Shown piece after piece: positions 8,175 to 32,532 of a DNA stretch of 64,000 nt (its first letter is position 1; the number at the start of each line of letters is the position of its first letter). Origin of the DNA: Paracoccaceae bacterium. Lineage in GTDB: Bacteria; Pseudomonadota; Alphaproteobacteria; Rhodobacterales; Rhodobacteraceae. The stretch covers positions 9,189-73,188 of the forward strand of contig CACOXV010000008.1 of assembly GCA_902631295.1 (NCBI GenBank). Reading direction: 5' to 3'. Position numbers and translations under genes: made by a program. Below the pieces are notes generated by a model that was given only the letters and a program-made list of their open reading frames with translations, was not told the DNA's origin and ran no database searches.

Positions 8175-8377
8175 ACTTATGTCTCTATTAAAATTTCATC
8201 TATAAATTGCACTTGTATCAGTTATTGAATGGATAGCTAGCATAATACTCCCAATACTAAAGACCTAAGCTATAGTATTCTGAATAAAGATCTTGGGAGA
8301 TCTGTGTAAAAATCATTAAGATTGACAAAATAGCTCATTTTCAGACAAAGTTGTTGAATGCGGAGGCACGTTAAAAA

Positions 8378-8647: not shown

Positions 8648-8781
8648 TTCTCGTTTGATTAGAAAAAAAAGGCTGCATAAATGCAGCCAGTAGGAGGTTA
8701 TATGAAGCAGTTCTGTTTAATCTTTGCAAATGGTATGCCAAGTGATTAGCTAGGTAAATTTGTTTAGGGTTATTTTTTGAT

Positions 8782-9663: not shown

Positions 9664-9850
9664 GGAAGAGATTATTTTTGCATTTATTTAATCTTGATAA
9701 GTTCACGATTAACCGTTTTCAGCATATAAATCAGCCAATGGATCCACGTTTTTCTGATAAGAATCCACTAGTCCATTCTGGTTTGGGTTATGGTTGTTTA
9801 ACAGCTTCGCTACCAATGAAAAAAAATAAAGCTCCTAGATAGGCGATGAC

Positions 9851-10738: not shown

Positions 10739-10765
10739 AAATGATTTATATAAAATCTACTAAAA

Positions 10766-11722: not shown

Positions 11723-12120
11723 CTAAATATTCGGATTACCTTTTGAACTTCTCTTCTACAGTAGTTACAATAAACTTTCTGCTCAATCTACATTCCTATT
11801 CCGTAAACTCAAAGGCTTGACAGTGAGAACGATAACCTGCTTAGAGTAGTCTTAATGGTCTGCGGAAGGTATCAAACTGTCGAAGATATATGAGACATCA
11901 TTTATTTCTCTAAAAATCGCACTGGGCTTAATTGTTTATGCCCTTTTTTGGCGGTCAATTAGTAGTGCCTAATGTTGAAAGAGATGATGGCACTCTAGAA
12001 AAAGAATTTTATGTCGGGGAAACTATTTCTGCAGTAAATAATTAGATAAAAAAACTAATATTAATTCTTAAAATTTTATGTAGTTTGTATTTATAAAAAT
12101 TACCAGTATTGGGGTTGTTG

Positions 12121-13506
12121 ATGAAAATAAGAAATTCAAATTTTTTGAAGGCCAATGAGCCATCTACCGATGTTTTACATTCTTGGGATAGGCAACACCA
12201 GTTACATCCATGGGCAGCAATGGATGCGTGGCGAGAGTACGATCACATGCTGGTAGAAAATGCTGATGGAATTTATTTGTGGGACGCCTCTGGTAAGAAG
12301 TTTATAGACGGCCCGGGTGGAATGTGGTGTGTTCAGATTGGTTATGGAAGGCAAGAAATGGCCGACGCAATTGCTAAGCAAGCAATGAAACTTCCATATG
12401 CTTCTCCATGGACAACAGTCACTGAGCCATCATCTATTCTTGCAAAAAAAATTGCTGAGCTAGCCCCAGGAGATTTAAATAACGTATTTTTTACAACTGG
12501 TGGTTCTACTGCTATTGATACTGCTATTAGGACTATGCATTTTATGAACAATAGGTTGGGTAGGCCAGACAAAAAAATTGTTTTAGCCAGAGAAAAAGGT
12601 TATCATGGATCTACCTATTTAGCTTCTACAGTTACTGGTAAAGAACGGGATAAGTCCCGTTTCGATATTGAAGACCGTTTGGTTCATTTTTTGCCGGATG
12701 TTAATCCTTATCGACGACCTGAAAACATGTCTGTTGAGGCTTGGTGTGATGAAAAGGTTGCTGATTTAGAAAAGGCAATCAGAGACCTTGGGCCAGATAA
12801 AGTTGGGGCTTTTATTGCGGAACCGATTCTGTGTTCAGGTGGCGTAATAATTCCTCCAGATGGTTATCATAAGCGTACGCTAGAAATCTGTCGAAAGCAT
12901 GATGTTCTATATATATCTGACGAAGTCGTTACAGGTTTTGGTCGGCTCGGTCATTGGTTCGCATCTAGTGACGTGTTTGGAATTCAGCCGGACATCATAA
13001 CATGTGCTAAAGGCTTAACATCCGGCTACTTGCCATTAGGTGCATGTATAATATCAGATGATGTTATGGCGCGAATGGAAAGTCCCGACGAATCTGTATT
13101 ATTTTCCAATGGTTATACGTATTCAGCTCACCCCGTTTGTTGTGCAGCAGCATTGAAGAATATTGATATCTTTGAGGAAGAAGACATTTTAGGCAATGTA
13201 CAAAAAGTTACACCTCATTTTCAGAGGAGGCTTCAAGAGTTGGCACAGTATCCAATTGTCGGCGATGTACGTGGGATGGGTTTGCTTGGCTGCATAGAGG
13301 GTAAACCAGATCAACAAGGCTACACATTGGCAGAAGAAAGAAAACTTGGGGCACTGCTAGATAAAGCTTGTGAGGAGATGGGCCTATTAGTGAGGCCACT
13401 GATAAATATGGCGGTTTTTTCCCCACCTTTGGTCATAAATACTTCTCAAATAGATGATATGTTCGATATTCTTGACAAAGCATTAGAGAAAGTTTCTCAA
13501 ATTTAA
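12121..13506 (+). CDS. Class III PLP aminotransferase (omega-amine/putrescine:pyruvate type)
   Basis: GYHGST, FIAEP, SDEVVTGFGRLG, CAKGLTSGY; start 12121 or TTG 12109. Confidence 0.93.
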   Translation: MKIRNSNFLKANEPSTDVLHSWDRQHQLHPWAAMDAWREYDHMLVENADGIYLWDASGKKFIDGPGGMWCVQIGYGRQEMADAIAKQAMKLPYASPWTTVTEPSSILAKKIAELAPGDLNNVFFTTGGSTAIDTAIRTMHFMNNRLGRPDKKIVLAREKGYHGSTYLASTVTGKERDKSRFDIEDRLVHFLPDVNPYRRPENMSVEAWCDEKVADLEKAIRDLGPDKVGAFIAEPILCSGGVIIPPDGYHKRTLEICRKHDVLYISDEVVTGFGRLGHWFASSDVFGIQPDIITCAKGLTSGYLPLGACIISDDVMARMESPDESVLFSNGYTYSAHPVCCAAALKNIDIFEEEDILGNVQKVTPHFQRRLQELAQYPIVGDVRGMGLLGCIEGKPDQQGYTLAEERKLGALLDKACEEMGLLVRPLINMAVFSPPLVINTSQIDDMFDILDKALEKVSQI

Positions 13507-13513
13507 TTGCAAG

Positions 13514-14797
13514 TTAGGGAGATTTAATTTTTGGCTTTACTATATTGGTAATGCGTGTGGCTGCTAATTTGCCACTTTCATATGCGCCATTGACCAAACC
13601 CGCTATATTGCCAGCAGTTGCCTCACCCGCAAATATCAATTTTTCGGCTATAGGTTCGCTTAGCACTTCTCGCGCCCCAAAACAGCCTGGTTTGACTGCA
13701 GAGTAAGATCCCTTCGTGAATGGGTTACTCGCCCAATCAGTAGCAAAGCCCTTCAAAAAGTGTTTTCTGATTTTGTCACCTGACAAAATCTCGAGTTTCG
13801 ACAAGGCATATTCTACAATTTCCTCTTCACCTAGCTTTGATAAGTCCCAGGCGAACTGACCGCCGATAAATCCGACTACATAATCGTGGCCAGTTGGCCA
13901 AGCCAAGAAATAGCATTCACTCCCAATATTTTCCTTTGCAATGTCATACTGTACGAAGCTATTTTCAGCAAATCCTAATCTAATCCCATCAAAAAGCAGT
14001 GGGATTTTTACCAAGAGGCCCATTTGAATATCATCAATTGCCCTTTGGACTTTATTACAAAGTTTAGGAGTAAATTTTATCTTTTCGGATTTTAAAACAC
14101 CAACTGACACAGTACAAATGCATGCCTTAGCCACAATTGATCCCTTGGATGTTACAACCTTGACGCCTTTCCCAGACAGGTCTATTTCAAAGACGTTTGT
14201 GTTTAGGGCAATAGGAAAGTTATTATTTAATGTTGCCACCAAATTACCCAAACCTTCTTTCACAATAAAGCTTGGTTGAGTATCTTTTAAATGCCAATAT
14301 TCTGCTGTTGAAATTTGGTTGATATCAACAGCGTAGTTTAACGCTCCTTCCCAATTCTGAAAACATTCATTGTATGGAACGTTTGGAATTACTTTTGATG
14401 CTGGAATGTCTATTCCTTGTCGTCCGGTGTCCCGAAGAATTTCCTTTATTTTAGACTCAGACTTATTGTATTCGTTTATATTTGCTTGTGTCGATTTTGC
14501 CCCGTCTCTTTCGAACATCTCGATCTTTGGGTTCGAGTGGTCTACGAGTGTAAAGTTATTTTTTCTACCCAAATCTGAGAAGATATTATCGTCAGACCCT
14601 GATATCCAAGAGCAACCATGATCAACGGGTTGCCCAAAAATATCACTCTTTGTGTACGCCCGGCCTCCAATATGATCTGAAGCCTCTATAACTAAATACG
14701 AGGTTCCTAGTTCCTCAAGCTTTTTGGCTGCTGAAAGACCTGATGAACCAGCGCCAACTATAACAATATCGGGGTTAGTTGGAAGGGGTACACTCAA
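13514..14797 (-). CDS. Flavin monoamine/polyamine oxidase family
   Basis: GAGSSGL, IGGRAYT, W..NPFTKGSYS, FAGEAT, VNGAYESG. Confidence 0.9.
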   Translation of the reverse strand: MSVPLPTNPDIVIVGAGSSGLSAAKKLEELGTSYLVIEASDHIGGRAYTKSDIFGQPVDHGCSWISGSDDNIFSDLGRKNNFTLVDHSNPKIEMFERDGAKSTQANINEYNKSESKIKEILRDTGRQGIDIPASKVIPNVPYNECFQNWEGALNYAVDINQISTAEYWHLKDTQPSFIVKEGLGNLVATLNNNFPIALNTNVFEIDLSGKGVKVVTSKGSIVAKACICTVSVGVLKSEKIKFTPKLCNKVQRAIDDIQMGLLVKIPLLFDGIRLGFAENSFVQYDIAKENIGSECYFLAWPTGHDYVVGFIGGQFAWDLSKLGEEEIVEYALSKLEILSGDKIRKHFLKGFATDWASNPFTKGSYSAVKPGCFGAREVLSEPIAEKLIFAGEATAGNIAGLVNGAYESGKLAATRITNIVKPKIKSP

Positions 14798-15004
14798 ACG
14801 TTTGTCTACTTCTAGCTTTTTAATTTTAATAGATGCTACAGTGCTGCTTTATCCTATACAACCTATTGGAGCTACAGAAAAATTTTTAAATTAACCTCTA
14901 AAATGAAATTTCTGTATTTAACTCTTCTTATTTTTCTAGACTCAATACAAATTAAAGTATTTTATGAGTCGCATGCTATGAACTTTAAAAAGGAATTGGG
15001 AAAA

Positions 15005-16057
15005 ATGAGAAAATCTTTAAGTTACCTGGTGGCTGCAGCGACATTGTCGTTCAATGCTCCTGCATTTGCAGCAGATAGTGAACTGGTAGTTTTTGACTGG
15101 GGTGGATATGAAGACGAAATGTTCTTCCAGGATTATATGAAAAAATATGGCGATGCGCCAACTTACTCTTTCTTTTCAGATGAGGAAGAAGCTTTTCAAA
15201 AAGTGCGTGCGGGTTTCAGAGCTGACTTGGGTCATCCATGTTCGCAGTCAGTGGTAAAATGGAGAAATGCAGGCATTATAAAGCCAATAGATACTTCTAG
15301 GTTGTCTAATTTTGACAAGGTTGACCCTGGATTTGCTGGAATGGAGGGCTTTCAAGTTGATGGTGTACAATGGGCACTTCCGATAGATTGGGGTGCAACA
15401 GCATTAACATATAATTCTGACGAAGTATCCGCAGAAGAGGCCAGCTCTTTGCACGTTTTTGCTGATCCAAAATTTCAAGGGCGCGTGTCAATTATTGATA
15501 ACGTGGATGATGCCTATGCACTGGGTTATCTAGCTGTAGGAGTAATGGATTGGAACAAAGCTACGGACGAGGATTTTAAAAAGGCCTCAGATTTTCTCAG
15601 AAAAGTGCATAAAAATGTGCGACAATATCATGCTGATGGTGCCGAAGGTGCTGCGCTTATGAAGAGTGGTGAAATTCTTTTAGAATGGACGTGGAATGAG
15701 GTTGCATTTACTCTAAGTTATGAAGAGGACGCTCCAGCGGCTGTTTTCAACCGCGGTACCAAAGAAGGTTCTTCAACTTGGGTATGTGGCTATACAATGA
15801 TGAAAGACGCGCCTGGTTCTGAACAAAAAGCTTACGATTTTCTTGACGCTTGGCTTTCTGATGCATCTGCAGAATATATCGTTACTGAATGGGGTTATGG
15901 ACATACTAATAAAGAAGTAATGGCAACTGTTGGTAAAGAGAATGGATGGGAACCATTAGCAAGTTATACTGAAGGTTCTTTATTCCAAAAACCTTCGGAC
16001 CCGGCACATAGGGAGAAAATGATTAAAGAATGGGAGCTCATTAAAAGTGGCTTCTAA
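15005..16057 (+). CDS. potD: Polyamine ABC transporter substrate-binding protein (PotD/PotF family)
   Basis: Signal peptide, FDWGGY, PIDWG, WNE, STWVCG; ATG 15005 preferred over 14903. Confidence 0.85.
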   Translation: MRKSLSYLVAAATLSFNAPAFAADSELVVFDWGGYEDEMFFQDYMKKYGDAPTYSFFSDEEEAFQKVRAGFRADLGHPCSQSVVKWRNAGIIKPIDTSRLSNFDKVDPGFAGMEGFQVDGVQWALPIDWGATALTYNSDEVSAEEASSLHVFADPKFQGRVSIIDNVDDAYALGYLAVGVMDWNKATDEDFKKASDFLRKVHKNVRQYHADGAEGAALMKSGEILLEWTWNEVAFTLSYEEDAPAAVFNRGTKEGSSTWVCGYTMMKDAPGSEQKAYDFLDAWLSDASAEYIVTEWGYGHTNKEVMATVGKENGWEPLASYTEGSLFQKPSDPAHREKMIKEWELIKSGF

Positions 16058-16075: not shown

Positions 16076-16103
16076 TCTCAGAGGTGAATTTCGCCTCTGA
16101 GAT
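16076..16103. terminator. Bidirectional hairpin terminator between convergent potD and potA
   Basis: TCTCAGAGGTG-AATTT-CGCCTCTGAGA inverted repeat (one G-U pair), preceded by an A tract. Confidence 0.7.
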
Positions 16104-17179
16104 CAAATTGAAAAGGCAATTATATTATTCATATCAGCCTTTAGCTGAATTTCTTCACCGACAGAATAACTGAGTTGTCCAACAGAATTTTGTGAAGAGA
16201 TTGTCAACGTTTCTGTAGTACCGCATGATACTTTATAATTAGTTGTTTCACCGAAGTATGATACATCAATTATTTTACCAGAAATTAAATCTTTTGATCG
16301 AGAAGTCTTTGGCACTATTGCGATTTTCTCAGGACGTATTCCAAGAACCATTTTTTTAGATGATTGGCCAAAAACGCGAGACTTCTCTATGTTTATTTTT
16401 CCAAAAATTTCAGACTGAACCTGTAAATTTTTGTTTTCACCGATGATTTCACCTTTAATAAACGTCATTTCTCCAATGAAAGATGCAACTTTTTGAGAAT
16501 TTGGAAGTTCGTAAAGGTCTCTTGGTGATGCTTCTTGTGCCACCTTTCCATCGAACATAACGGCTACTCGGTCACTCATTGTAAGCGCTTCATATTGGTC
16601 ATGTGTCACGAGTATAAAAGTAATTCCGACGGCTCGCTGCAGATGTCTAAGTTCTGATTGCATCTGTTCTCGTAGCTTTTTATCTAGTGCTGAGAGTGGT
16701 TCGTCCAATAAAAGAACTTTTGGTTTTAATATTAGTGCACGTGCTAGGGCAACACGCTGCTTTTGGCCGCCAGAAAGGGCATTCGCAGAACGTTTATTGA
16801 GACCGGATAATCCCACTAGTTCAAGAGCTTCATCAACCAGTTTGTTCTGATCAGACCTTTTTTCACGTTTGTTCCGCAATCCATAGGCTACATTTTCCTC
16901 GACATTTAAGTGCGGGAAAATAGCGTAATTTTGGAAAACCATATTTGTTGGTCGCAAATTAGGCTCAATACCATCCATCGAGATATTATCGATAAAAACC
17001 TGCCCAGATGTTGGTTTTTCAAAGCCAGCGATTAGTCTCAATAGTGTAGTTTTACCGCAACCAGAAGGACCTAAAAGTGAATAAAACTGGCCTTCTTGAA
17101 TGTCCAAAGAAACACCATTTACAGCATGAACGTCACCAAAGCTTTTAAAGACATTTTTCACCTGAACTAACTTACCCAT
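16103..17179 (-). CDS. potA: Polyamine ABC transporter ATP-binding protein
   Basis: GPSGCGKT, LSGGQKQR, LLLDEPLSALD, C-terminal TOBE region. Confidence 0.93.
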   Translation of the reverse strand: MGKLVQVKNVFKSFGDVHAVNGVSLDIQEGQFYSLLGPSGCGKTTLLRLIAGFEKPTSGQVFIDNISMDGIEPNLRPTNMVFQNYAIFPHLNVEENVAYGLRNKREKRSDQNKLVDEALELVGLSGLNKRSANALSGGQKQRVALARALILKPKVLLLDEPLSALDKKLREQMQSELRHLQRAVGITFILVTHDQYEALTMSDRVAVMFDGKVAQEASPRDLYELPNSQKVASFIGEMTFIKGEIIGENKNLQVQSEIFGKINIEKSRVFGQSSKKMVLGIRPEKIAIVPKTSRSKDLISGKIIDVSYFGETTNYKVSCGTTETLTISSQNSVGQLSYSVGEEIQLKADMNNIIAFSI

Positions 17180-17199
17180 CGTTTAAAATCCCTTTAATT

Positions 17200-17997
17200 T
17201 TACAATACGGACGTTTGTGTTTTTGCCGCTCTTCTTCGGAAATATTCACCAAGCGATAACAAAATTAACGAAACAAAGATTAGAATTGTGCCGAGTGCCA
17301 TTGTCGCGGGCAATTGTTTCGGGAATCGAAACAATGACCAAATGTAAACTGGTAATGTTGTCTCTGTACCAGTTAAGAAAAATGCGATTATGAACTCATC
17401 CAAAGACAAGGTAAAACCGAGTAATAGGCTTGCCATTATACCAGGATATACAAGCGGCAGGATGATGCGACGAAAGGTTCCAAGTGGCGTTTCGCCAAGA
17501 TCAAGGGATGCTTCCTCTAAGCTTATATCAAGGTTATTAAAGGCAGAATTCATAATGAGTATTGAGAACGGCATGATCAGGAGTGTATGGCCCAATACGA
17601 CGCTCCATAAATTAAGAGGCAGTCCAAGCTGAATTAATACGATCAAGAGTGATACACCTACTATTATTTCAGGCAGAACTAGAGGTGCCAAAATGAAGGT
17701 TAGCGAAAACTGTTTGCCGGGGAAATAGTACCTACTCGCCGCGCGTGAAGCTAATATACCTAATATAGTAGCAAAAATACTTGATGATGCAGCCACAATC
17801 AGTGAATTTTTCAATGCTTCATGTAAAGTCTCTTGATATAGTAAGGCCTTGAACCAACCAGTAGTGAAACCTGATAATGGAAAAGCAATAATTTGGCTTG
17901 AATTAAACGAAAATATTGGAAGTAGTAATGCTGGGGCATACAAAAATATTAAATATGTGATAGCAAAGGTTTTGAGGTATTTATTTGAGCGGTTCAT
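17200..17997 (-). CDS. potC: Polyamine ABC transporter permease
   Basis: EEASLDLG EAA loop, FTLSLDEF, TLPVYIW; ATG 17997 after GGAGG. Confidence 0.9.
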   Translation of the reverse strand: MNRSNKYLKTFAITYLIFLYAPALLLPIFSFNSSQIIAFPLSGFTTGWFKALLYQETLHEALKNSLIVAASSSIFATILGILASRAASRYYFPGKQFSLTFILAPLVLPEIIVGVSLLIVLIQLGLPLNLWSVVLGHTLLIMPFSILIMNSAFNNLDISLEEASLDLGETPLGTFRRIILPLVYPGIMASLLLGFTLSLDEFIIAFFLTGTETTLPVYIWSLFRFPKQLPATMALGTILIFVSLILLSLGEYFRRRAAKTQTSVL

Positions 17998-17998
17998 A

Positions 17999-18865
17999 TT
18001 AGTACCTCCGTAAGTGTTTTTTGTTAATGAGAACAAAAACAATTGAGATAAATGCTACGATCACTAATGAGGAAACAGATAAAGCGGCAGCGAGAGGAGC
18101 ATTATTTGCTTTAGAGAACTGAACCTGGATCATATTTGCGATCATTAGGCCATCTGTGCCTCCCACTAGTTTAGGTGTGATGTAATCACCTACAGTGGGA
18201 ATAAAAATTATTAGCGCCGCACCAACCACACCAGGCATCGATAATGGCAGGATGACCCTAAAAAATTGTTTAATTGGCCCATCTCCAAGATCTCTACTTG
18301 CTTCCAGTAAAGATCTATCAATCTTTTCCAGGGATACAAAAATTGGTAGAATAGCAAAAGGTGCCCAACCATGCGTGAGCGCAATAATTACGGCATTTGA
18401 GTTATACAAAATAAAAGTTAGAGGTTCAGTTATCATCTCTAGCCAAAGCAGAAATGAATTCAGAACACCATTGTATCCCAGAATGACCTTCCACAAAAAC
18501 ATTCTAAGCAGGTAACTTGTCCAAAACGGTATCGTAATTAGAAATAACCAAAGTGCTTTTCTATTGCCACCATAAAACGAAATATAATAGGCCATTGGAT
18601 ACGCTAGTAAAACAGTAAAAAAAGTTACTGTTAGGGAAATGTAGAGAGATCTTGAAAACAGTAATTGATATACAGGCTGTGTAAACGCTTCGATGTAATT
18701 ATTCAAAGTAAATGATTTGTCGAGAATTAAATAATCTTGTGTCCAAAAGCTTAAGAGGAACATCATTGTCAGTGGAGCTGCCAATAAAATGATGCTGAAA
18801 GCTAACGGAGTAGAAAGAAGTTTCCAGCCTTTTTTTGTTTCGTCTTTCAGTGTTAAGCTAAAAAT
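17999..18865 (-). CDS. potB: Polyamine ABC transporter permease (5' end uncertain: ATT start at 18865 or a homopolymer frameshift)
   Basis: PFWTSYLLR, LLEASRDLG; frame stays open upstream of TTG 18784 through the first TM helix. Confidence 0.85.
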   Translation of the reverse strand: MFSLTLKDETKKGWKLLSTPLAFSIILLAAPLTMMFLLSFWTQDYLILDKSFTLNNYIEAFTQPVYQLLFSRSLYISLTVTFFTVLLAYPMAYYISFYGGNRKALWLFLITIPFWTSYLLRMFLWKVILGYNGVLNSFLLWLEMITEPLTFILYNSNAVIIALTHGWAPFAILPIFVSLEKIDRSLLEASRDLGDGPIKQFFRVILPLSMPGVVGAALIIFIPTVGDYITPKLVGGTDGLMIANMIQVQFSKANNAPLAAALSVSSLVIVAFISIVFVLINKKHLRRY

Positions 18866-18928
18866 TTTTTATCCCCGTTTTCATTCTTAATCAGCCTACA
18901 AATAATTGCTCGTCTTATCTGTCATTAA

Positions 18929-18962
18929 AAAGCCATAATGCTTAATGGCTTTAGTTCGTCAA
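18929..18962 (-). promoter_or_regulatory. Putative sigma70 promoter of potBCA with an overlapping 8-bp inverted-repeat operator
   Basis: Minus strand TTGACG-N16-CATTAT; AAAGCCAT-N8-ATGGCTTT at 18929-18952. Confidence 0.45.
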
Positions 18963-19383
18963 GAAAAATAGATATAATTTGGTGAAGGAGTGTTTTCCAA
19001 AGCTTATAATGTTGGCATTATTAAACTGCTTTCTTGTTTTTCTAACTAAAGTAGTTCCCGCGAATATCTGATAGAAACGTCTACCCCTAATTTCATAACC
19101 TATTTCTCTACATTACAACTTTCGTTTAACTTTGTACTGCACAATAACTATAGGTAATGGGAATATTTTTTCGATCTTTATTTCTAGTGTATTTTGTACA
19201 TGCAAATAACCATCAAATTGCTATAAAAAAATCTGTGCCTCTCATAGTGAGATTTAAGAATGATAACTCATGTTTGCCTAAAATAAAAAAATCTAAATTT
19301 TCACAATAAGATCAGCAATCAATTTTTGACTCACTATTTTGTAATGTTAAGGTGTGGTAACAAATAAATCTTCAAGGTAGGTA

Positions 19384-21015
19384 GTGCAGTCTGTGGAAAA
19401 AAACTTTGATGTAATAGTTATCGGTTCTGGTCATAATGGTTTGGTTAATGCTTGTTACCTTCAAAAAGCGGGTTTGAACGTTCTTGTTTTAGAAAAAAAT
19501 GACTGGATAGGTGGTGCTGCGGTTAGTCGTGAGCTTCATCCTGGAATTTTATATTCAAACTGTTCTTATGTTTGCAGTCTTTTTAGACCTGAAATCATGA
19601 GAGATTTGGAGCTGCCAAAACATGGTCTGCAGATTGTTGCGATAGAGGGCGGTACGGTATTTACAAGGGATGGCGATTATCTTGCATCCTTTAGAAACTA
19701 CCATGCAAAAAAACGAGAGTTAGAACGGTTTAGTGTAAAAGACAGTGAAGCTTATTCAAGATACTCTCGCGATATTCTAAAGCAGTGCAGATTTATTCAA
19801 CCACTTTTAATGAGAACCGCACCAGATCCAGCGAGCTTTAAATTTAGAGATCTTTCAGAAATGCTTTATCTGTTGCGTAAAGTAAATGACTTAACTGCGA
19901 GTGAATTAGCTGATACCGTTCGTTTCTGGACTATGTCAATTTCAGACTTTTTAGATGAATATTTTGAAAATGACGTAATAAAGGCTTCTCTAGCAGTGTC
20001 CGGTATCATCGGCACAGCTTTGGGCCCGATGTCACCAGGTACCGCCTACGTGCTATTGCATCACTACATGGGCGAAGTTGATGGTTCGATCGGGGCTTGG
20101 GGCTACGCCCGAGGAGGAATGGGTGCTATTTCTAAAGCTCTGACCTCATCCTTTAGGGCAATGGGTGGAACGTTGCTAAATAATTCTGAGGTGGAAAAAG
20201 TTGATATTAGAGGTGCTCGAGTTAAAGGTGTGATATTAAAAAATGGGGACGAGTATTTAGCGCAAAATGTTGTTTCAAATGCTGATGTAAAGCGAACATT
20301 TTTGAAATTGACTGATCCCGAACATCTGCCACCAAACTTTGTAAAAAAAGTGAATAACTTTAAGATACGTGGCTCATCAGGAAAGGTAAATATCGCTCTT
20401 GATAGTATGCCGAATTTCCCTGTTATTTCAGATAATAATCCATGTTTAAAAGGTGATATTCATTTCACAGACAGTATTGAGAGGATGGAGAGAGCTTACG
20501 ATGATTGGAAAATGGGAACTTGGTCTAGGGATCCGTTTTTAGATATGATGATACCTACTTTAACCGATCCTACCATGGCTCCTCCTGGCAAGCATTTTAT
20601 GAGTTGCTTTGTTCAGTATTGTCCCCCTAAAGTAGGTGGCCAAAATTGGACTAAAGAAAATAAGGAAGCATTTGGAGAGACAGTAATTCAACAAATTGCA
20701 GATTATTCACCAGGGTTCAAAGATAAGATACTGCACATGGAAGTAAGAACTCCTAAAGAACTTGAAGAAGAGGTTGGTTTGACAGAGGGAAATATTTTTC
20801 AGGGCGAGTTAACTTTTGACCAGTTATTGTTTAATAGACCAATCCCAGGTTATGCCCAATATAGAAGCCCCATTAAAGGGCTCTACATGTGTGGTTCCTC
20901 TACTCATCCAGGGGGTGGTGTCATGGGTGCTCCTGGTCGGAATGCGGCCGTTGAAATACTCAAGGATCTTAATATGCCTGACTCCGACATTAGGGATGCT
21001 TATGAAGTCTTATGA
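19384..21015 (+). CDS. Phytoene-dehydrogenase-like FAD oxidoreductase (COG1233/PYROXD2-like), subunit 1
   Basis: GSGHNGL, SYVCSLFRP, LLHHYMGE, GGMGAIS, GNIFQGEL, CGSSTHPGGGVMGAPG. Confidence 0.88.
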   Translation: MQSVEKNFDVIVIGSGHNGLVNACYLQKAGLNVLVLEKNDWIGGAAVSRELHPGILYSNCSYVCSLFRPEIMRDLELPKHGLQIVAIEGGTVFTRDGDYLASFRNYHAKKRELERFSVKDSEAYSRYSRDILKQCRFIQPLLMRTAPDPASFKFRDLSEMLYLLRKVNDLTASELADTVRFWTMSISDFLDEYFENDVIKASLAVSGIIGTALGPMSPGTAYVLLHHYMGEVDGSIGAWGYARGGMGAISKALTSSFRAMGGTLLNNSEVEKVDIRGARVKGVILKNGDEYLAQNVVSNADVKRTFLKLTDPEHLPPNFVKKVNNFKIRGSSGKVNIALDSMPNFPVISDNNPCLKGDIHFTDSIERMERAYDDWKMGTWSRDPFLDMMIPTLTDPTMAPPGKHFMSCFVQYCPPKVGGQNWTKENKEAFGETVIQQIADYSPGFKDKILHMEVRTPKELEEEVGLTEGNIFQGELTFDQLLFNRPIPGYAQYRSPIKGLYMCGSSTHPGGGVMGAPGRNAAVEILKDLNMPDSDIRDAYEVL

Positions 21016-22564
21016 TGTTATTGTAATTGGAGCTGGACACAATGGTCTCATCGTAGCTTCAAAGTTGGCTTCTTCCGGAAGAAAAGTTCTTCTAATTGAA
21101 GCTGGCGAGACCTACGGTGGGATGGCCAGGAGTGAAGTTTTATTTGAAGGTTTCCAAGCGCCGGAATTGGCTAGTAATGCATTTGGTATTTCAAAAGATG
21201 TAGTGCAAGATTTGGGTCTCAGCAAATATGAGATTTTGTTTAATGAAGATGGTTTAAAGACCGTAGGCCTGAACACAGAAAATGAAAATGTTATATTTGG
21301 CAGTAGTTTTGGAAAAAGTATCGAGGGTATAGGAAAGGAAGAATTCAAACGATGGAAAGAATTAAGAGAGAAATTTTTTAATCAAAGCCATCTGTTTCAA
21401 AGATTGGCATCGCAAATTCCTGTAGGAGGTAATCACAAAACATTTGGCAGTAAAGTCAATTTATTTTTGACAGCTGCAAAATTAAGGCTGCAAGGTAGAG
21501 AACAATTTCAAGAACTTTTACGAATGATTACCATGTGCATCGCTGATTTAGTAGAAGAAGAACTTGAAACACCTTCTCTAAAAGGACTAATTTCATTTGA
21601 CTCTACATTAGGTATTAAACTAGGGCCTAGATCGCCAACGTCATATCTAGGTTTATTGTACAAACTTTCACAAATTAAAGCCTCCTATCAAGAGAAATCA
21701 TTGTCTATTCATGGCGGTGTAACCAGTTTCATTAATGCTCTGTTTAAGTCAGCTGAGGAAAATGGAGTGGATTTCGTCTTTAAGGGGAAAGTCAGTTCAA
21801 TTATTATATCGGATTCCGTAGCGACAGGTGTAAAGCTAGAAAACGGGGTGGAATACTCTGCAAAAACAATTGTCTCCTCCATCAGTCCAGTGAACACCTT
21901 TCTTGATTTAGTCGGTGCTCAAAACTTGGAGACTGATCTAACAAGACGGATTCGAGCTCTTAGGTACTCGGGAAATACCAGTAAACTCAATATTATTTTG
22001 GAGGAAATTCCAAAGTTAAATAATTCTCAAAACCTAGATGAAAACTACCGATATGTTTATGCCCCTTCTCTAGCCTCAGTGGAAAGTAACTTTAATTCCC
22101 TTAAATATAATGAGCTTCCTTCTGATCCCAATTTTGAAATATATTTCAATAAGATTTCTTCCGAATCTTCTCTCAATGGAGCAGTTATGGCCTCCATTTG
22201 TATTCAGAATACGCCATATTCTCTTAAAGGTGGCTGGAAAAATTCAAAGGAAGTTTTGATGAAAAAGGTAATCTCAACAATTCAAAAATTGGCTCCTGAT
22301 TTTAGCAAGGGTATTTTATTCAAAAGTCTTCTTCTTCCGCATGAAACTGAAAAAAAATATTGCGTTGCCGGTGGTCACTGGCACCATAGTGAATTACAAA
22401 TAGATAGTCTCTATTCATTGAGGCCGACATTTGATGTGTCAGATTATTCCACCCCTATTGATGGCCTTTTCATTTGTGGAGCGGGCACCCATCCAGGTGG
22501 TAATCTTTTTGGCTTGTCAGGCTTAAACGCAGCTAAAAAGATCTTGCGAGAGAGTATAAAATGA
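21002..22564 (+). CDS. Phytoene-dehydrogenase-like FAD oxidoreductase, divergent paralogue (subunit 2)
   Basis: MKSYDVIVIGAGHNGL start overlapping the upstream stop; GGHWHH.EL, CGAGTHPGG. Confidence 0.85.
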   Translation: MKSYDVIVIGAGHNGLIVASKLASSGRKVLLIEAGETYGGMARSEVLFEGFQAPELASNAFGISKDVVQDLGLSKYEILFNEDGLKTVGLNTENENVIFGSSFGKSIEGIGKEEFKRWKELREKFFNQSHLFQRLASQIPVGGNHKTFGSKVNLFLTAAKLRLQGREQFQELLRMITMCIADLVEEELETPSLKGLISFDSTLGIKLGPRSPTSYLGLLYKLSQIKASYQEKSLSIHGGVTSFINALFKSAEENGVDFVFKGKVSSIIISDSVATGVKLENGVEYSAKTIVSSISPVNTFLDLVGAQNLETDLTRRIRALRYSGNTSKLNIILEEIPKLNNSQNLDENYRYVYAPSLASVESNFNSLKYNELPSDPNFEIYFNKISSESSLNGAVMASICIQNTPYSLKGGWKNSKEVLMKKVISTIQKLAPDFSKGILFKSLLLPHETEKKYCVAGGHWHHSELQIDSLYSLRPTFDVSDYSTPIDGLFICGAGTHPGGNLFGLSGLNAAKKILRESIK

Positions 22565-23778
22565 TACAGTCAAATGGGAAAAATGATAGGGATATAATAT
22601 TTGGCAAACCACTTTTTAGGTCTCCCTTTTATGATTTTTTTGCTGCGCAGGAAACTGAAGGTAATTGGTATAATTGGAATGGATACAAATCACCAACAAT
22701 TGTATCAGATCAGGAGTTAGAATATTTTTCTATCCGTTCAACTTGTAGTGTCTTCGATATTACTCCTTTAAATAAATATAGAATTGTAGGGTCACAGGCT
22801 GTAGAATTTTTAAACAAGCTTACTGTAAGAGATGTTGCTAAACAGAATGTTGCTACAGTTAAGTACACATTGTGGTGTGATCAGGATGGATTTGTAATTG
22901 ATGATGGAACACTTTTTAGGATTTCCGATAATGATTTTCGCCTGTGTTCGCAGGAAAAGCATCTTCCTTGGCTGATTGATACATCGCATGGCTTTGATGT
23001 TGAAATTATTGATGAGAGTAAGCACGTTTGTGGAATATCTCTTCAGGGGCCCACTTCTGCCTCAATTCTCCGCTTACTTGGGGTAAACGGCATAGATAAT
23101 TTGAAACCGTTTCATCTTTTTCAAACAAAAATATCAAATATCCCAATAATGATATCAAGAACTGGTTTTACTGGAGACTTGGGTTACGAAATTTTTTTGA
23201 AAAATAATGTGGCAAATAAATTTATTGAGAGAGTTTGGAACGCAGGCACCAATCATGGAATTACAGCGATTGGATACAACGCCTTAAATATGGCTAGAAT
23301 AGAAGCAGGTTTTATAGTGGCTAATATTGATTTTATTTCGTCTGATCATGCAATAAGGCCAAATAGATGTAGACGCCCTGATGATCTTGGTCTCGGATGG
23401 ATAGTTGACCTGAACAAAGGGTTCTTCAATGGAAGAAGGGCTATTATAAATAGTAAGTTGGAAGACAGTGAAGTTTTTAAGATTTATGCTTTAGAAATAG
23501 ATGGAAAAGAGCCAGCCGAGGGATCAATAATATATTATAACAAAAAAGATGAGGTTGGTACTGTGACTTCAGCTATTTGGTCACCTATGACAAAAAAATC
23601 TATTGCTCTCGCTCAGTTGAAATTGGGTTCATCAAAATCAAAAAAAGACAATTTATGGGTCGAAATATATTCTCTGAAAGAGTTACAATATCATAAACTT
23701 ATGAAGAAAGTTTCTATAGTAAAGCCACCATTTGTCAATTTATCAAGGAGATCTGCTTGCCCACCGGCTAAATGTTGA
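22561..23778 (+). CDS. GcvT-family THF-dependent aminomethyl/methyltransferase (DmdA/LigM-like fold)
   Basis: EYFSIR..SVFDITP, DDGTLFR, SRTGFTGDLGYE, RIEAG; ATGA overlap. Confidence 0.88.
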   Translation: MIQSNGKNDRDIIFGKPLFRSPFYDFFAAQETEGNWYNWNGYKSPTIVSDQELEYFSIRSTCSVFDITPLNKYRIVGSQAVEFLNKLTVRDVAKQNVATVKYTLWCDQDGFVIDDGTLFRISDNDFRLCSQEKHLPWLIDTSHGFDVEIIDESKHVCGISLQGPTSASILRLLGVNGIDNLKPFHLFQTKISNIPIMISRTGFTGDLGYEIFLKNNVANKFIERVWNAGTNHGITAIGYNALNMARIEAGFIVANIDFISSDHAIRPNRCRRPDDLGLGWIVDLNKGFFNGRRAIINSKLEDSEVFKIYALEIDGKEPAEGSIIYYNKKDEVGTVTSAIWSPMTKKSIALAQLKLGSSKSKKDNLWVEIYSLKELQYHKLMKKVSIVKPPFVNLSRRSACPPAKC

Positions 23779-23885
23779 CTTTTAAGATATTGACGGGTTT
23801 GGAGATTAGCTTTTATCGTTTTTATAAGTCTTTAGTTTTACTTTTACGATGTTACGATTATGTCGTTCACGTTTATAAAGTGAAT

Positions 23886-25103
23886 TTAATGATTGTTTAA
23901 TTGATCTTTATTTTTTTTAGCAAGCAGACTTTCGTTTGCCTGAAGTAATCTACCTCGATCTGGTTCTGGGCCTAAAAGAACGGGAAAGTGTTCTCTTAAA
24001 GCATCATGGTAAGCCTTAACTCCGTATTCTAGATCAGACAATATCACACCCTGGTAAGCACTTGAAAAAGCGGCTTCCCATGACCATTCGATTAATTGTT
24101 CGTCTTCTTTGCTTGTTATTCTGTCGATTCTCATGCTCAGGTATCTAGAAATTCTCATCTTGCGGTCTTCGTCTCCAAACTTATAGTTCGCTCCGCGTTG
24201 TATAGTCTTACCATTTTCAACTGGGTATTCTTGATAGAAAATTACAGAGTCGGGGTAGAGACCAAAAACTAAGTTTGGAAATACACCAAGATACAACCAA
24301 CATTTTTTGTGTGCTTCGTCTAAAGTAGCTTTGGGTTGGAGCAATTTTTTGTAATTTTTTACACTCCACAGCCTACCATTGGTTGAACTAAATGAACCAA
24401 CCGATCTAGAAACACCGCCTTCAAGAGGTTCATCGTAATAGTTTTCCCCAAATAAATCGTGTAACCCTGGATGCGCCATTGGTACATGATATCCTTCATT
24501 ATCGACGTCACGTACACATTTCCAATTTGCATTAATTTGTTCTGTCCAAAATCCTTCTCCTGTGGGTTCAACATCTTCTAGATCATATTGGGAAATTTCA
24601 TTTTCAAATTTGCGTAGAAATTTTGAAAGCGGCGGTTGTGGCCCAGGCTGAAATCTTACAAAAACAAAACCATGCCAAATATCCATTTCAAGTGGAATTA
24701 GACCATATTCTAGCTTGTCTAAATTAGGGAAAGATTTAGGCTGTGCAGCACCTCGCAAAGACCCGTCTAAATTATAAGTCCAACCGTGAAATGGGCAAAG
24801 TATAACTGACCTGCAATTACCATATTCTTCAGCTACAACCCTTGATCCACGGTGACGGCACAAATTATGAAATGCTCTTACTTTCCCATCTTTTCCTCTT
24901 AAAACCAGTGCTCTCTCACCAATCAAATCCCACGTTATAAAATCTCCCACGTTTGGTATATCATTACTGTGGCATACCAATTGCCAGTGACGCCGAAATA
25001 GCAAATCTTTTTCGGCGTCAAACATTTCTTGATTAATGAAACTCCAGGCTGGTAAACCAGTGCGATCCCAATCATTGGATAATTCTGGACTTTTGTTTTC
25101 CAC
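23886..25103 (-). CDS. Rieske non-heme iron oxygenase alpha subunit (betaine/choline N-demethylase-like group)
   Basis: CRHRG and CPFHGW Rieske ligands; NWK..DNEGYHV..AH mononuclear Fe site. Confidence 0.9.
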   Translation of the reverse strand: MENKSPELSNDWDRTGLPAWSFINQEMFDAEKDLLFRRHWQLVCHSNDIPNVGDFITWDLIGERALVLRGKDGKVRAFHNLCRHRGSRVVAEEYGNCRSVILCPFHGWTYNLDGSLRGAAQPKSFPNLDKLEYGLIPLEMDIWHGFVFVRFQPGPQPPLSKFLRKFENEISQYDLEDVEPTGEGFWTEQINANWKCVRDVDNEGYHVPMAHPGLHDLFGENYYDEPLEGGVSRSVGSFSSTNGRLWSVKNYKKLLQPKATLDEAHKKCWLYLGVFPNLVFGLYPDSVIFYQEYPVENGKTIQRGANYKFGDEDRKMRISRYLSMRIDRITSKEDEQLIEWSWEAAFSSAYQGVILSDLEYGVKAYHDALREHFPVLLGPEPDRGRLLQANESLLAKKNKDQLNNH

Positions 25104-25274
25104 TTATTATGCCTTTTTATGCAATGATAAGCTCTTTGCAATTGTAAGCAATTAAAAAATTAGAAAAATCAGATCCGTTAATAATACTTGATTATATAGC
25201 GTGTTTCTTTACTCAACAATAAATTGACTGAATAGAAAAAAAGTGTTCACTTGTATTAATCAAGGAGAGAAAAA

Positions 25275-31111: not shown

Positions 31112-31147
31112 TAGATCTTCAGGCATTAAACGAATGAAGAGGAATTA

Positions 31148-32389: not shown

Positions 32390-32532
32390 GAGTATAGTAA
32401 GGGCGGCATGTCGCTGCATAGCTCAGATCAGTCCCATGCCATGCAAACGAATGGATAACCCTTACTGGCGTATGTACTTGGACAAATGAATTTGATGTTT
32501 TGCCTAAGTTATCCCATTATGACGCCAAGTGA
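32390..32532 (+). pseudogene. Eroded 3' remnant of a DddQ-like (DMSP lyase family) cupin
   Basis: SLHSSDQSHAMQTNG*PLLAYV then, after a 1-nt shift, WTNEFDVLPKL; resembles cupin motif 2 and the C-terminus of DddQ-type proteins as recalled. Confidence 0.45.

What the first reader, a model, noticed from the sequence alone, without database searches (positions are those of the whole stretch)
19384..23778. PYROXD2-like flavoprotein pair plus GcvT-family protein: candidate split THF-dependent N-demethylase
Seen: two paralogous phytoene-dehydrogenase-like FAD proteins (14-nt overlap) coupled by ATGA to a GcvT-fold protein, divergent from potBCA, with no carotenoid genes nearby. Known: sarcosine and dimethylglycine dehydrogenases fuse a flavin amine-oxidising domain to a GcvT domain that passes the C1 unit to THF. 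Human PYROXD2 variants are associated with methylamine and N-methyl-lysine levels. Inference: a heterodimeric flavoenzyme plus C1 acceptor that demethylates an N-methylated amine imported by the Pot system, such as methylated polyamines or methyl-lysines. I know of no characterised reaction for this trio.
Basis: partly seen in the sequence, partly recalled or inferred. Interest (0 to 1): 0.72.

Follow-up and report, generated by a model that had tools for sequence, protein, structure and literature searches.

The report
Folate-linked flavoprotein amine demethylase module
Three overlapping genes in a marine roseobacter-type bacterium (two related flavoproteins and a folate-binding protein) form a module kept together across at least eight bacterial phyla; it most likely removes methyl groups from imported amines and passes the carbon to folate, but no one has tested it.

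Summary
FadA (19384-21015), FadB (true ATG at 21002, ends 22564; 14-nt overlap) and a stand-alone GcvT-family protein (22561-23778; ATGA overlap) form one coupled unit, divergent from potBCA.

The linkage is not chance. In 65 of 65 related loci with a tandem flavoprotein pair and at least 2 kb of flank, a GcvT gene lies within 1.5 kb. These loci span at least eight phyla and several gene orders. Single-ORF fusions occur (FadA-partner, GcvT-FadA).

Recurrent neighbours are Pot-type ABC importers, class III aminotransferases, CntA/GbcA-like Rieske oxygenases, BetI-type TetR regulators, aldehyde dehydrogenases and PurU. A Rhizobium plasmid carries the window's nine-gene set rearranged, with a TetR regulator in addition.

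Both flavoproteins score far below the CrtI and CrtO cut-offs. The genome's probable crtB-crtI pair lies on another contig. The GcvT is not the glycine-cleavage T-protein; its closest solved relative is the formaldehyde-trapping THF domain of TMAO demethylase.

Best reading (0.6): a split, folate-coupled flavoprotein N-demethylase of an imported methylated amine. Chemistry, complex formation and substrate are inferred.

This scan found the same module before on other DNA, with the same reading. I found no paper characterising it.

The parts
19384..21015 (+). FadA: the conserved CrtI/amine-oxidase-fold FAD subunit (543 aa, PYROXD2-like by automatic naming), probably the catalytic subunit
   Evidence: It matches Pfam Amino_oxidase, DAO and NAD_binding_8. 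It scores 309 bits on NCBIfam CrtO (cut-off 1000) and 127 on crtI_fam (cut-off 238). It is 72% identical to the Rhizobiales orthologues. The orthologue clade has 61 members, support 100, across six named phyla. The motif L(T/S)EGNIFQGEL is invariant in this clade. The AF2 model has pLDDT 85; its nearest folds are CrtD 4rep, 3ka7 and CrtI 4dgk, followed by MAO, putrescine oxidase and NicA2.
21002..22564 (+). FadB: the fast-evolving paralogous FAD subunit (520 aa) and probable partner of FadA
   Evidence: It is 27% identical to FadA. The GxGxxG...E and C-terminal THPGG motifs are invariant among its homologues. Its signature GGHWHH(G/S)E replaces the FadA motif EGNIFQGE, and the partner clades of other phyla mostly share a GG(H/Q)xxHGE-like motif. 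It overlaps FadA by 14 nt.
22561..23778 (+). Stand-alone GcvT-family folate-binding protein (405 aa), the proposed C1 acceptor subunit
   Evidence: It has PF01571 and PF08669. It falls below the cut-off of every named NCBIfam model: GcvT 143/236, Tdm 227/1100, DmdA 96/410. Its best solved relative is the THF domain of TMAO demethylase, 9q59. D114, D115, E210, R246 and E248 are conserved. Its ATG overlaps the FadB stop as ATGA.
18785..19383 (.). Divergent intergenic region between potB and FadA, the presumed promoter and regulatory region
   Evidence: The spacer is 599 nt and holds no ORF of 100 aa or more. Only generic promoter-like matches occur there. No TetR gene is present, although 15 related loci have a BetI-type TetR at this position.
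16103..18784 (-). potA, potC and potB: ATPase and two permeases of a polyamine-type ABC importer
   Evidence: NCBIfam matches are PotA 370 bits, PotC 177 and PotB 199. Homologues lie beside the trio in 21-26 of 65 loci. They are 50-63% identical in the Rhizobium sp. SL42 locus.
14903..16057 (+). PotD/PotF-like periplasmic substrate-binding protein
   Evidence: It matches SBP_bac_8. Its best solved relatives are the putrescine- and spermidine-binding proteins PotD and PotF. A 50% identical orthologue sits next to the trio in Rhizobium sp. SL42.
13514..14797 (-). Flavin amine oxidase of the polyamine-oxidase / LSD type
   Evidence: Pfam Amino_oxidase E 1e-52. Its best solved relatives are LSD2, maize polyamine oxidase and spermine oxidase. 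A 52% identical match covering the C-terminal part of the protein lies about 2 kb from FadA at the cut edge of the stretch fetched from a same-family genome, L085.
12109..13506 (+). Class III (omega) aminotransferase
   Evidence: Aminotran_3 E 7e-84. It scores 654 on NCBIfam PRK07036, above the cut-off of 618. 66% identical copies directly follow GcvT in two same-family genomes. Class III aminotransferases lie near the trio in 27 of 65 loci.
23886..25103 (-). Rieske non-haem-iron oxygenase alpha subunit of the CntA/GbcA/Stc2 group, convergent with GcvT
   Evidence: It has Rieske and Ring_hydroxyl_A domains. GbcA is the best NCBIfam match, below the cut-off. The best solved relative is carnitine monooxygenase CntA over the full length, then stachydrine demethylase Stc2. 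Homologues lie in 19 of 65 loci: 50% identical in Rhizobium SL42 and 48% in Fuscovulum.

Best explanation
FadA, FadB and the GcvT-like protein most likely form one enzyme: a split, folate-coupled flavoprotein N-demethylase.

Proposed mechanism:
1. A methylated amine enters through the PotABCD-like importer.
2. Where the nitrogen is quaternary, the CntA/GbcA-like Rieske oxygenase removes the first methyl group.
3. The FadA-FadB flavoprotein pair oxidises an N-methyl C-N bond of the tertiary or secondary amine to an iminium ion. FadA is the conserved, probably catalytic subunit. FadB is a diverged FAD-binding partner.
4. The GcvT-like subunit traps the one-carbon unit on tetrahydrofolate as 5,10-methylene-THF, so free formaldehyde is not released.
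5. The exposed primary amine is removed by the class III aminotransferase. In roseobacters a polyamine-oxidase-like enzyme may also cleave secondary amines.

Shown here: the gene anatomy, the paralogy, the conserved FAD and THF motifs, the strict co-occurrence of the trio, the fusions and the recurrent neighbours.

Inferred: that the proteins form a complex, that the chemistry is N-demethylation, the electron acceptor and the substrate. The likely substrate is a cationic N-methylated (poly)amine or an omega-amino quaternary ammonium compound.
For: (1) Translational coupling: 14-nt and 4-nt overlaps.

(2) 65 of 65 related loci with a tandem pair and enough flank have GcvT within 1.5 kb. This holds despite different gene orders (FadA-FadB-GcvT, FadB-FadA-GcvT, GcvT-FadA-partner, divergent GcvT). 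The loci come from Pseudomonadota, Bacteroidota, Acidobacteriota, Gemmatimonadota, Dormiibacterota and Zixiibacteriota, among others.

(3) Fusions. Five proteins of 1037-1064 aa join a FadA-like module to a partner module. One of these was confirmed as a continuous ORF, with a divergent GcvT and a Rieske gene beside it. One protein of 957 aa joins GcvT to a FadA-like module.

(4) Both flavoproteins keep the N-terminal dinucleotide-binding motif and the C-terminal THPGG FAD motif. The FadA model lies in the CrtI/flavin-amine-oxidase fold group, with MAO, putrescine oxidase and NicA2 among its neighbours.

(5) The GcvT keeps the T-protein IDD aspartates and the GDLGYE and R-x-E blocks. Its closest solved relative is the THF domain of TMAO demethylase, which was shown to convert channelled formaldehyde to methylene-THF (PMC13619132).

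(6) Neighbours typical of methylamine and betaine catabolism recur: PurU in 9 loci, BetI-type TetR in 15, aldehyde dehydrogenase in 13, Rieske in 19, Pot-type ABC in 21-26 and class III aminotransferase in 27.

(7) A Rhizobium sp. SL42 plasmid holds the same gene set: PotD, FadA, FadB, GcvT, PotA, PotC, PotB, aminotransferase and Rieske. In Fuscovulum ytuae the set forms one co-oriented operon.

(8) They are not carotenoid enzymes: they score below the CrtI and CrtO cut-offs, and the genome's phytoene-synthase-family gene with a weak CrtI-like match beside it lies on another contig.

(9) Contigs from RNA libraries of three studies match parts of all three genes at 95% identity or more. One bridges the FadA/FadB junction. 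This is weak evidence, because DNA carry-over cannot be excluded.
Against: There is no biochemical or genetic evidence for any member of the module, and I found no paper on it.

The flavoprotein fold is that of carotenoid desaturases as much as of amine oxidases; the top three structural hits are CrtD, 3ka7 and CrtI.

GcvT-family proteins can also act alone as methyltransferases (DmdA, LigM). Co-occurrence therefore does not prove that GcvT serves the flavoprotein.

No electron acceptor (ETF or a reductase) is conserved nearby, and the Rieske oxygenase has no reductase partner in the annotated part of the window.

The 80 loci were chosen by likeness to FadB and are not independent samples.

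The neighbours differ between lineages: Pot ABC in proteobacteria, APC permeases in Acidobacteriota, and CoA-ligase, acyl-CoA dehydrogenase and hydratase genes in Woeseiaceae. Several substrates are therefore likely, and the one used here is unknown.
Confidence: 0.6

Rival explanations
1. The GcvT-like protein works alone as a DmdA/LigM-type methyltransferase. It moves a methyl group directly from an onium (N+ or S+) or O-methyl substrate to THF, giving 5-methyl-THF. FadA/FadB catalyse a separate redox step of the same pathway, for example oxidising the demethylated amine. The three genes would then share a pathway but not form one enzyme.
For: DmdA, LigM and DesA models match the GcvT-like protein, though weakly. 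The Woeseiaceae-type loci carry CoA ligase, acyl-CoA dehydrogenase and enoyl-CoA hydratase genes, which recalls the DmdB, DmdC and DmdD steps. A DMSP-lyase-family cupin sits in the Fuscovulum operon.
Against: The DmdA (96/410), DesA and LigM scores are much lower than those for Tdm, GcvT and SoxA. The T-protein aspartates used for methylene transfer are conserved. A GcvT-FadA fusion exists. PurU, not MetF, is the folate enzyme that recurs nearby. Strict 65 of 65 adjacency across changing gene orders fits subunits better than pathway neighbours.
Confidence: 0.15
2. FadA/FadB is an amine dehydrogenase or oxidase for a non-methylated amine, such as a polyamine secondary amine or an aminomethyl or glycine-like compound. 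GcvT handles an aminomethyl fragment, as it does in glycine cleavage, or merely detoxifies formaldehyde from elsewhere.
For: The locus has a polyamine-type importer, a PotD/PotF-like binding protein, a polyamine-oxidase-like enzyme and an omega-aminotransferase. A gamma-glutamylation-type pair (GS-like protein and aldehyde dehydrogenase) lies further along the window.
Against: Common polyamines give no one-carbon unit on oxidation, so a strictly linked folate protein would have no role. No H-protein or P-protein partner lies nearby in the annotated genes. The Rieske oxygenases of the CntA/GbcA/Stc2 group that recur nearby act on quaternary N-methyl compounds.
Confidence: 0.12
3. FadA/FadB are carotenoid or isoprenoid desaturases or ketolases, as their database names (phytoene desaturase family, CrtO-like) suggest, and the GcvT neighbour is incidental.
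For: The best NCBIfam match is CrtO. The best solved sequence and fold matches are CrtI and CrtD.
Against: The scores are far below the family cut-offs: 309 and 155 against 1000, and 127 and 64 against 238. No crt genes appear in the window or in any of the 80 related loci among the recurrent neighbour families. The genome has a separate phytoene-synthase-family gene with a weak CrtI-like match beside it on another contig. The linkage to GcvT is 65 of 65.
Confidence: 0.02

Closest known systems
Dimethylglycine oxidase/dehydrogenase and sarcosine dehydrogenase (DMGO 1pj5, DMGDH 4paa/5l46)
   Same: A flavin oxidises an N-methyl group, and a GcvT-fold THF domain captures the C1 unit as methylene-THF. 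The window's GcvT aligns to their C-terminal domains with E 1e-20 to 1e-25.
   Different: Their flavin domain is the DAO/GR2 type (PF01266 core), present once and fused to the GcvT domain. Here there are two CrtI/amine-oxidase-fold flavoproteins, and the GcvT is a separate polypeptide.
Heterotetrameric sarcosine oxidase SoxABDG and N-methylglutamate dehydrogenase
   Same: These are multi-subunit, folate-coupled N-demethylases encoded by coupled genes, often with purU nearby. The SoxA model matches the GcvT-like protein at 144 bits.
   Different: SoxB is a DAO-type flavoprotein. SoxA carries its own NAD/FAD-like domain as well as the GcvT domain. The small SoxD and SoxG subunits have no counterpart in the window. 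The subfamily cut-off is not met (144 against 1164).
TMAO demethylase Tdm (9q59; PMC13619132)
   Same: It is the closest solved relative of the GcvT-like protein (E 1.5e-38). Its THF domain receives channelled formaldehyde and makes methylene-THF.
   Different: The Tdm catalytic domain is a Zn-containing DUF1989-type domain, not a flavoprotein, and it is fused to the THF domain. The NCBIfam Tdm score is 227 against a cut-off of 1100.
CrtI/CrtD/CrtO carotenoid desaturases and ketolases (4dgk, 4rep)
   Same: They share the FAD fold and the N- and C-terminal FAD motifs, and they are the best fold and sequence matches for FadA.
   Different: FadA and FadB score far below the family cut-offs. They have no carotenoid gene context, occur as an obligate paralogue pair with a folate protein, and carry distinct active-site-region motifs (EGNIFQGE and GGHWHHxE).
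Human PYROXD2 (orphan mitochondrial flavoprotein)
   Same: The Atlas clusters nearest to FadA carry the automatic name 'Pyridine nucleotide-disulfide oxidoreductase domain-containing protein 2'. PYROXD2 variants associate with N-methylpipecolate, trimethylamine and dimethylamine (PMC5780481), which fits a role on N-methyl amines.
   Different: I made no alignment to the human protein here. As far as I know, PYROXD2 is a single gene with no known GcvT partner, and its reaction is unknown.

Membership tests
Phytoene desaturase family (NCBIfam TIGR02734 crtI_fam) / beta-carotene ketolase CrtO (NF045689) | Whole-protein score at or above the curated cut-off | tested here: not met
   FadA scores 127 against 238 (crtI_fam) and 309 against 1000 (CrtO). 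FadB scores 64 against 238 and 155 against 1000.
Phytoene desaturase family / CrtO | Carotenoid biosynthesis gene context (crtB, crtE, crtY and so on) | tested here: not met
   No crt gene is among the annotated neighbours or among the annotated recurrent neighbour families of 80 related loci. The genome's phytoene-synthase-family gene and the weak CrtI-like match beside it lie on contig C3.
Flavin amine oxidoreductase superfamily (Pfam PF01593) | Score above the gathering threshold over the full domain, with a dinucleotide-binding motif | tested here: met
   FadA scores 50.8 bits and FadB 37.4 bits against a threshold of 19.8, spanning model positions 3-443. GxGxxG...E is invariant. MAO, putrescine oxidase and NicA2 are among the fold neighbours.
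Glycine cleavage T-protein GcvT (TIGR00528 / PRK00389) | Score at or above the equivalog cut-off | tested here: not met
   It scores 142.6 against 235.85 and 189 against 300. The genome has 13 GCV_T-domain matches, and the best (262 bits, in a 393-aa frame) lies on another contig.
Glycine cleavage T-protein GcvT | THF-binding fold with the conserved aspartate (IDD) and the GxxGYE and R-x-E blocks | tested here: met
   PF01571 E 1e-51 and PF08669. D114 and D115 are conserved in 90% or more of orthologues; E210, R246 and E248 are invariant in 35 orthologues. They align to the same blocks of the B. subtilis and T. maritima T-proteins.
DMGDH/SARDH/DMGO-type folate-coupled demethylases | A DAO-type FAD domain fused N-terminally to the GcvT domain in one polypeptide of about 800-860 aa | tested here: not met
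   The GcvT here is a 405-aa stand-alone protein. The flavoproteins have the CrtI fold; the DAO match covers only the N-terminal Rossmann part, residues 9-111.
DMSP demethylase DmdA (NF009133) | Score at or above the equivalog cut-off | tested here: not met
   It scores 95.7 against 410.
TMAO demethylase Tdm (NF053776) | Full-length two-domain architecture (DUF1989-type catalytic domain plus THF domain) and score at or above the cut-off | tested here: not met
   It scores 227 against 1100, and only model positions 400-737 (the THF domain) are matched.
PYROXD2 family | Orthology-level similarity to human PYROXD2 | tested here: inconclusive
   The only evidence is the automatic names of the nearest Atlas clusters. 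No human sequence was available to align. Earlier scan notes state about 40% identity, which I did not check.

The most novel reading that the evidence does not exclude
FadA-FadB-GcvT is a previously unrecognised class of folate-coupled N-demethylase, built on a heterodimer of CrtI/PYROXD2-fold flavoproteins instead of the DAO-fold flavoproteins of all known enzymes of this kind. If so, it would give the first biochemical model for the human orphan enzyme PYROXD2. In this pelagic roseobacter it would work with a Pot-type importer, a quaternary-amine Rieske oxygenase, a polyamine-oxidase-like enzyme and an omega-aminotransferase. Together these would mineralise N-methylated polyamine-like compounds; the N-methylated long-chain polyamines of diatoms are one speculative candidate.
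Probability: 0.45. Interest if true: 0.8.

Novelty: new variant of a known kind. Interest (0 to 1): 0.62.

Why it matters
Folate-coupled oxidative N-demethylation (dimethylglycine, sarcosine, N-methylglutamate, 4-methylaminobutyrate) is known only with DAO-fold flavoproteins. A second, unrelated flavoprotein scaffold doing the same job would add a new enzyme class. Here that scaffold is an obligate paralogue pair, and at least 590 matching stretches were found in a collection of 185,579 species genomes.

It would correct hundreds of 'phytoene desaturase' annotations. It would also give a concrete, testable hypothesis for human PYROXD2, whose variants are among the strongest metabolite QTLs for N-methylpipecolate, trimethylamine and dimethylamine.

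For the ocean, it would mark a route by which a streamlined roseobacter (and some Pelagibacterales, Porticoccaceae and Woeseiaceae) obtains nitrogen, carbon and C1 units from methylated amines. Contigs from marine RNA-sequencing libraries match the genes.

Tried and rejected
1. Complex prediction for FadA with GcvT, using alignments A2 and A3, gave no verdict: score 0.16 against the mark of 0.32, and the controls were not run. This is neither for nor against binding. FadA with FadB (1063 residues) exceeded the 1000-residue limit and could not be run.

2. Literature searches did not find a paper characterising the trio. I searched PYROXD2 with demethylase, PYROXD2 with N-methylpipecolate, phytoene dehydrogenase with aminomethyltransferase, polyamine and Rieske, PYROXD2 with THF, GcvT and sarcosine, and COG1233 with aminomethyltransferase. 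The library holds open-access papers only, so this does not prove absence.

3. Two same-family genomes showed long open frames over FadB (1052 and 1180 aa), which I suspected were fusions. On fetching them, FadA and FadB lie in different frames, so they are not fusions.

4. I searched the window for the TetR regulator, the SAM methyltransferase and PurU seen in related loci. None was found.

5. The promoter and terminator scan of 18700-24000 gave only generic matches and no terminator after GcvT.

6. RNA-library contigs leave parts of the operon uncovered, including most of FadB between about 21400 and 22000 and the FadB/GcvT junction. Nothing can be concluded from those gaps.

7. A midpoint-rooted FastTree did not resolve whether all partner (FadB-type) clades are monophyletic; support was 73-84. 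The shared GG(H/Q)xxHGE-like motif suggests one ancient duplication but does not prove it.

8. The carotenoid reading is rejected (see rival explanations).

Full report
**Observation**

- FadA runs 19384-21015 on the + strand (GTG start behind an AAGGTAGG-type ribosome site, 543 aa).
- FadB begins at ATG 21002, not at the upstream TTG of the longest ORF, and ends at 22564 (520 aa). Its first 14 nt overlap the end of FadA.
- The GcvT-family gene runs 22561-23778 (405 aa). Its ATG overlaps the FadB stop as ATGA.
- FadA and FadB are full-length paralogues: 27% identity, E 5e-53.
- potB, potC and potA lie on the other strand and diverge from FadA across a 599-nt spacer.

**What the proteins are**

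Both flavoproteins match Pfam Amino_oxidase over its whole length and have the N-terminal dinucleotide-binding motif. Their best NCBIfam matches are the carotenoid enzymes CrtO and the CrtI family, but far below the curated cut-offs: FadA 309 against 1000 and 127 against 238; FadB 155 against 1000 and 64 against 238.

The best solved sequence relative of FadA is CrtI, 4dgk. An AlphaFold2 model of FadA (pLDDT 85) is closest to CrtD 4rep, 3ka7 and CrtI 4dgk. Close behind come monoamine oxidases, putrescine oxidase and nicotine oxidoreductase. The fold therefore sits between carotenoid desaturases and flavin amine oxidases.

The GcvT-like protein has PF01571 and PF08669 but is below the cut-off of every named model: GcvT 143/236, DmdA 96/410, Tdm 227/1100, SoxA 144/1164. 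Its closest solved relative is the C-terminal THF domain of TMAO demethylase, 9q59. A 2026 cryo-EM study showed that this domain receives channelled formaldehyde and forms methylene-THF (PMC13619132). The T-protein IDD aspartates and the GDLGYE and R-x-E blocks are conserved in 35 orthologues.

**The organism**

The genome is a 1.96-Mb assembly, 70% complete. A protein 87% identical to FadB is recorded from a Paracoccaceae MAG. Fourteen marine metagenome runs from five studies hold about three quarters of the stretch's sampled words. This points to a low-GC pelagic roseobacter type.

The genome has 13 GCV_T-domain matches. Its phytoene-synthase-family gene, with a weak CrtI-like match beside it, lies on another contig. 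FadA and FadB are therefore not its carotenoid enzymes, and this GcvT-like protein is not the top-scoring GCV_T gene in the genome.

**Is the trio a unit?**

A profile of FadB homologues found at least 590 matching stretches in a collection of 185,579 species genomes, and 80 loci were fetched with 10-kb flanks. I searched them with the window's proteins by tblastn.
- 73 loci have a tandem flavoprotein pair, and 65 of those have at least 2 kb on both sides. All 65 have a GcvT gene within 1.5 kb.
- The loci come from Alpha- and Gammaproteobacteria, Bacteroidota, Acidobacteriota, Gemmatimonadota, Dormiibacterota, Zixiibacteriota and others.
- Gene order differs between them: FadA-FadB-GcvT; FadB-FadA-GcvT; GcvT-FadA-partner; GcvT divergent from the pair. 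Linkage that survives rearrangement argues for function, not shared ancestry of one operon.
- The only full-flank loci without GcvT (L060, L069) hold a single flavoprotein of a different small clade.

**Fusions**

A search for longer relatives of FadA found five proteins of 1037-1064 aa, each made of a FadA-like module followed by a partner-like module. It also found one 957-aa protein made of a GcvT module followed by a FadA-like module. The 1064-aa form is a continuous ORF on a 575-kb contig, with a divergent GcvT and a Rieske gene beside it. The GcvT-FadA fusion is a continuous ORF on a 22-kb contig. Each fusion is a singleton, so sequencing error cannot be fully excluded. Even so, six such fusions that follow the operon orders are what is expected of subunits of one enzyme.

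**Two kinds of subunit**

In a tree of 130 flavoproteins from these loci, the FadA orthologues form one clade of 61 (support 100) that spans six named phyla. The partners fall into several long-branched clades: proteobacterial FadB (n=41, support 99), acidobacterial (n=16, support 100), and smaller ones.

FadA is 72% identical between this roseobacter and Rhizobiales. FadB is only 37% identical.

At one site the FadA clade has an invariant L(T/S)EGNIFQGEL. The partners have GGHWHH(G/S)E in proteobacteria or GG(H/Q)IFHGE in acidobacteria. This loop is the only internal low-confidence stretch of the FadA model, residues 467-475. Both subunits keep the FAD motifs. My inference is a conserved catalytic alpha subunit with a diverging, still FAD-binding beta subunit.

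**Neighbours**

I clustered all ORFs of the 80 loci and annotated the recurrent clusters.

| Neighbour family | Loci |
|---|---|
| Class III aminotransferases | 27 of 65 |
| Pot-type ABC components | 14-26 of 65 |
| Rieske oxygenases | 19 of 65 |
| BetI-type TetR regulators | 15 |
| Aldehyde dehydrogenases | 13 |
| Formyl-THF deformylase PurU | 9 |
| Glutamine-synthetase-like proteins | 8 |
| DAO-type oxidoreductases | 7 |

APC permeases occur in Acidobacteriota. In Woeseiaceae-type loci there is an ADP-forming CoA ligase with an acyl-CoA dehydrogenase and an enoyl-CoA hydratase. PurU is a hallmark of folate-linked demethylation operons (established knowledge of the sox and dmg operons).

The window's Rieske protein is closest to carnitine monooxygenase CntA and stachydrine demethylase Stc2, enzymes that attack quaternary N-methyl compounds. 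The binding protein is PotD/PotF-like. The neighbouring amine oxidase is of the polyamine-oxidase/LSD type.

A Rhizobium sp. SL42 plasmid carries the same set: PotD, TetR, FadA, FadB, GcvT, PotA, PotC, PotB, aminotransferase and Rieske, at 45-72% identity except FadB at 37%. In Fuscovulum ytuae the set is one co-oriented operon: aminotransferase, FadA, FadB, GcvT, Rieske, Rieske, then a binding-protein gene, an ATPase gene and two permease genes of a Pot-type transporter, followed by a DMSP-lyase-family cupin and an amidohydrolase. In two other genomes of the window's family, a 66% identical aminotransferase directly follows GcvT.

The module is accessory. It was found in 17 of 150 sampled genera of the family, and not in the other species of the same genus.

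**Expression**

Contigs assembled from RNA libraries of three marine studies match parts of all three genes at 95% identity or more. One of them (20911-21061, no differences) crosses the FadA/FadB junction. DNA carry-over cannot be excluded, so this is only a weak sign of transcription in the sea.

**Mechanism**

The best-supported reading is a split analogue of dimethylglycine/sarcosine dehydrogenase.
1. The FadA-FadB pair oxidises an N-methyl C-N bond.
2. The GcvT subunit traps the C1 unit on THF.
3. The Rieske enzyme may take the first methyl group off a quaternary nitrogen.
4. The aminotransferase removes the freed primary amine.

The anatomy, conservation, fusions and motifs are shown. 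Complex formation, the chemistry, the electron acceptor and the substrate are inferred. I put this at 0.6.

The rivals are:
- GcvT as an independent DmdA-like methyltransferase, with FadA/FadB acting at another step (0.15).
- A non-methyl amine substrate, with GcvT handling an aminomethyl fragment or formaldehyde from elsewhere (0.12).
- A carotenoid role (0.02).

**What is known**

My searches found no paper that characterises this trio. RefSeq names the genes only as 'NAD(P)/FAD-dependent oxidoreductase' and 'aminomethyltransferase family protein'.

The link to human PYROXD2 rests here on the automatic names of the nearest Atlas clusters. It also rests on published associations of PYROXD2 variants with N-methylpipecolate, trimethylamine and dimethylamine (PMC5780481).

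This scan has met the same module before in other genomes, and follow-up agents reached the same reading (e1-2972846, e1-3576542, e1-934262, e1-3567334). Those are AI notes, not independent evidence.

- The 65 of 65 linkage count.
- The fusion proteins.
- The distinction between the alpha and beta subunits, with their motifs.
- The conserved nine-gene set shared with rhizobial and roseobacter replicons.
- The Tdm precedent for the folate domain.

**Verdict**

This is a real, strongly conserved and uncharacterised enzyme module. It is best described as a new variant of the folate-coupled flavoprotein N-demethylases, built on a different flavoprotein fold. Interest is 0.62. The finding is not unique to this window, and its chemistry is still inference, but it is directly testable in cultured carriers and bears on a human orphan enzyme.

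Noticed in passing
own genome, contig C3:32281-33979 (outside the window): A phytoene-synthase-family gene (PF00494, 227 bits) lies directly next to a 523-aa frame that is only weakly similar to FadA. This is probably the genome's real crtB-crtI pair, which may mean the organism makes carotenoids or is an aerobic anoxygenic phototroph.
   Followed up: partly
own genome, 13 places: There are thirteen GCV_T-domain matches in a 1.96-Mb, 70% complete genome. Four lie in frames of 810-836 aa (DMGDH/SARDH-like) and two in frames of 982-1005 aa (SoxA-like). That is an unusually heavy investment in folate-linked demethylation for a small genome.
   Followed up: no
window 60579-63330: A glutamine-synthetase-like gene and an aldehyde dehydrogenase overlap by 14 nt. 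They resemble the GS-like and aldehyde dehydrogenase neighbours of the trio in other genomes at 27-29% identity. This may be a gamma-glutamylation route for amines.
   Followed up: no
L081 (Fuscovulum ytuae plasmid) 22665-25116; compare window 29837-32532: In Fuscovulum the operon continues into a DMSP-lyase-family cupin and an amidohydrolase. The window has an amidohydrolase (cytosine-deaminase-like) at 29837-31111, and another first-reader note (e1-5478862) reports a DddQ-like cupin remnant at 32390-32532. I did not test whether these belong to the same pathway.
   Followed up: no
L042:6772-7920 (-), L051:8402-10009 (+), L065:851-2041 (+): Three tblastn matches to GcvT or FadA in acidobacterial and Zixiibacteriota MAGs contain one in-frame stop each. 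These could be pseudogenes, assembly errors or matches that run past the gene end; I did not resolve which.
   Followed up: no
window 23886-25103 and surroundings: The Rieske oxygenase alpha subunit has no reductase or ferredoxin partner among the annotated neighbours, and the trio has no TetR regulator here, unlike 15 related loci. The partners may lie elsewhere in the genome or in its unassembled 30%.
   Followed up: partly
L034 (Pseudomonadales MAG) 2263-14377: Two complete copies of the module lie side by side, with different gene orders: GcvT, FadA, FadB, GcvT, then FadB, FadA, GcvT. This suggests paralogous modules with different substrates in one genome.
   Followed up: no
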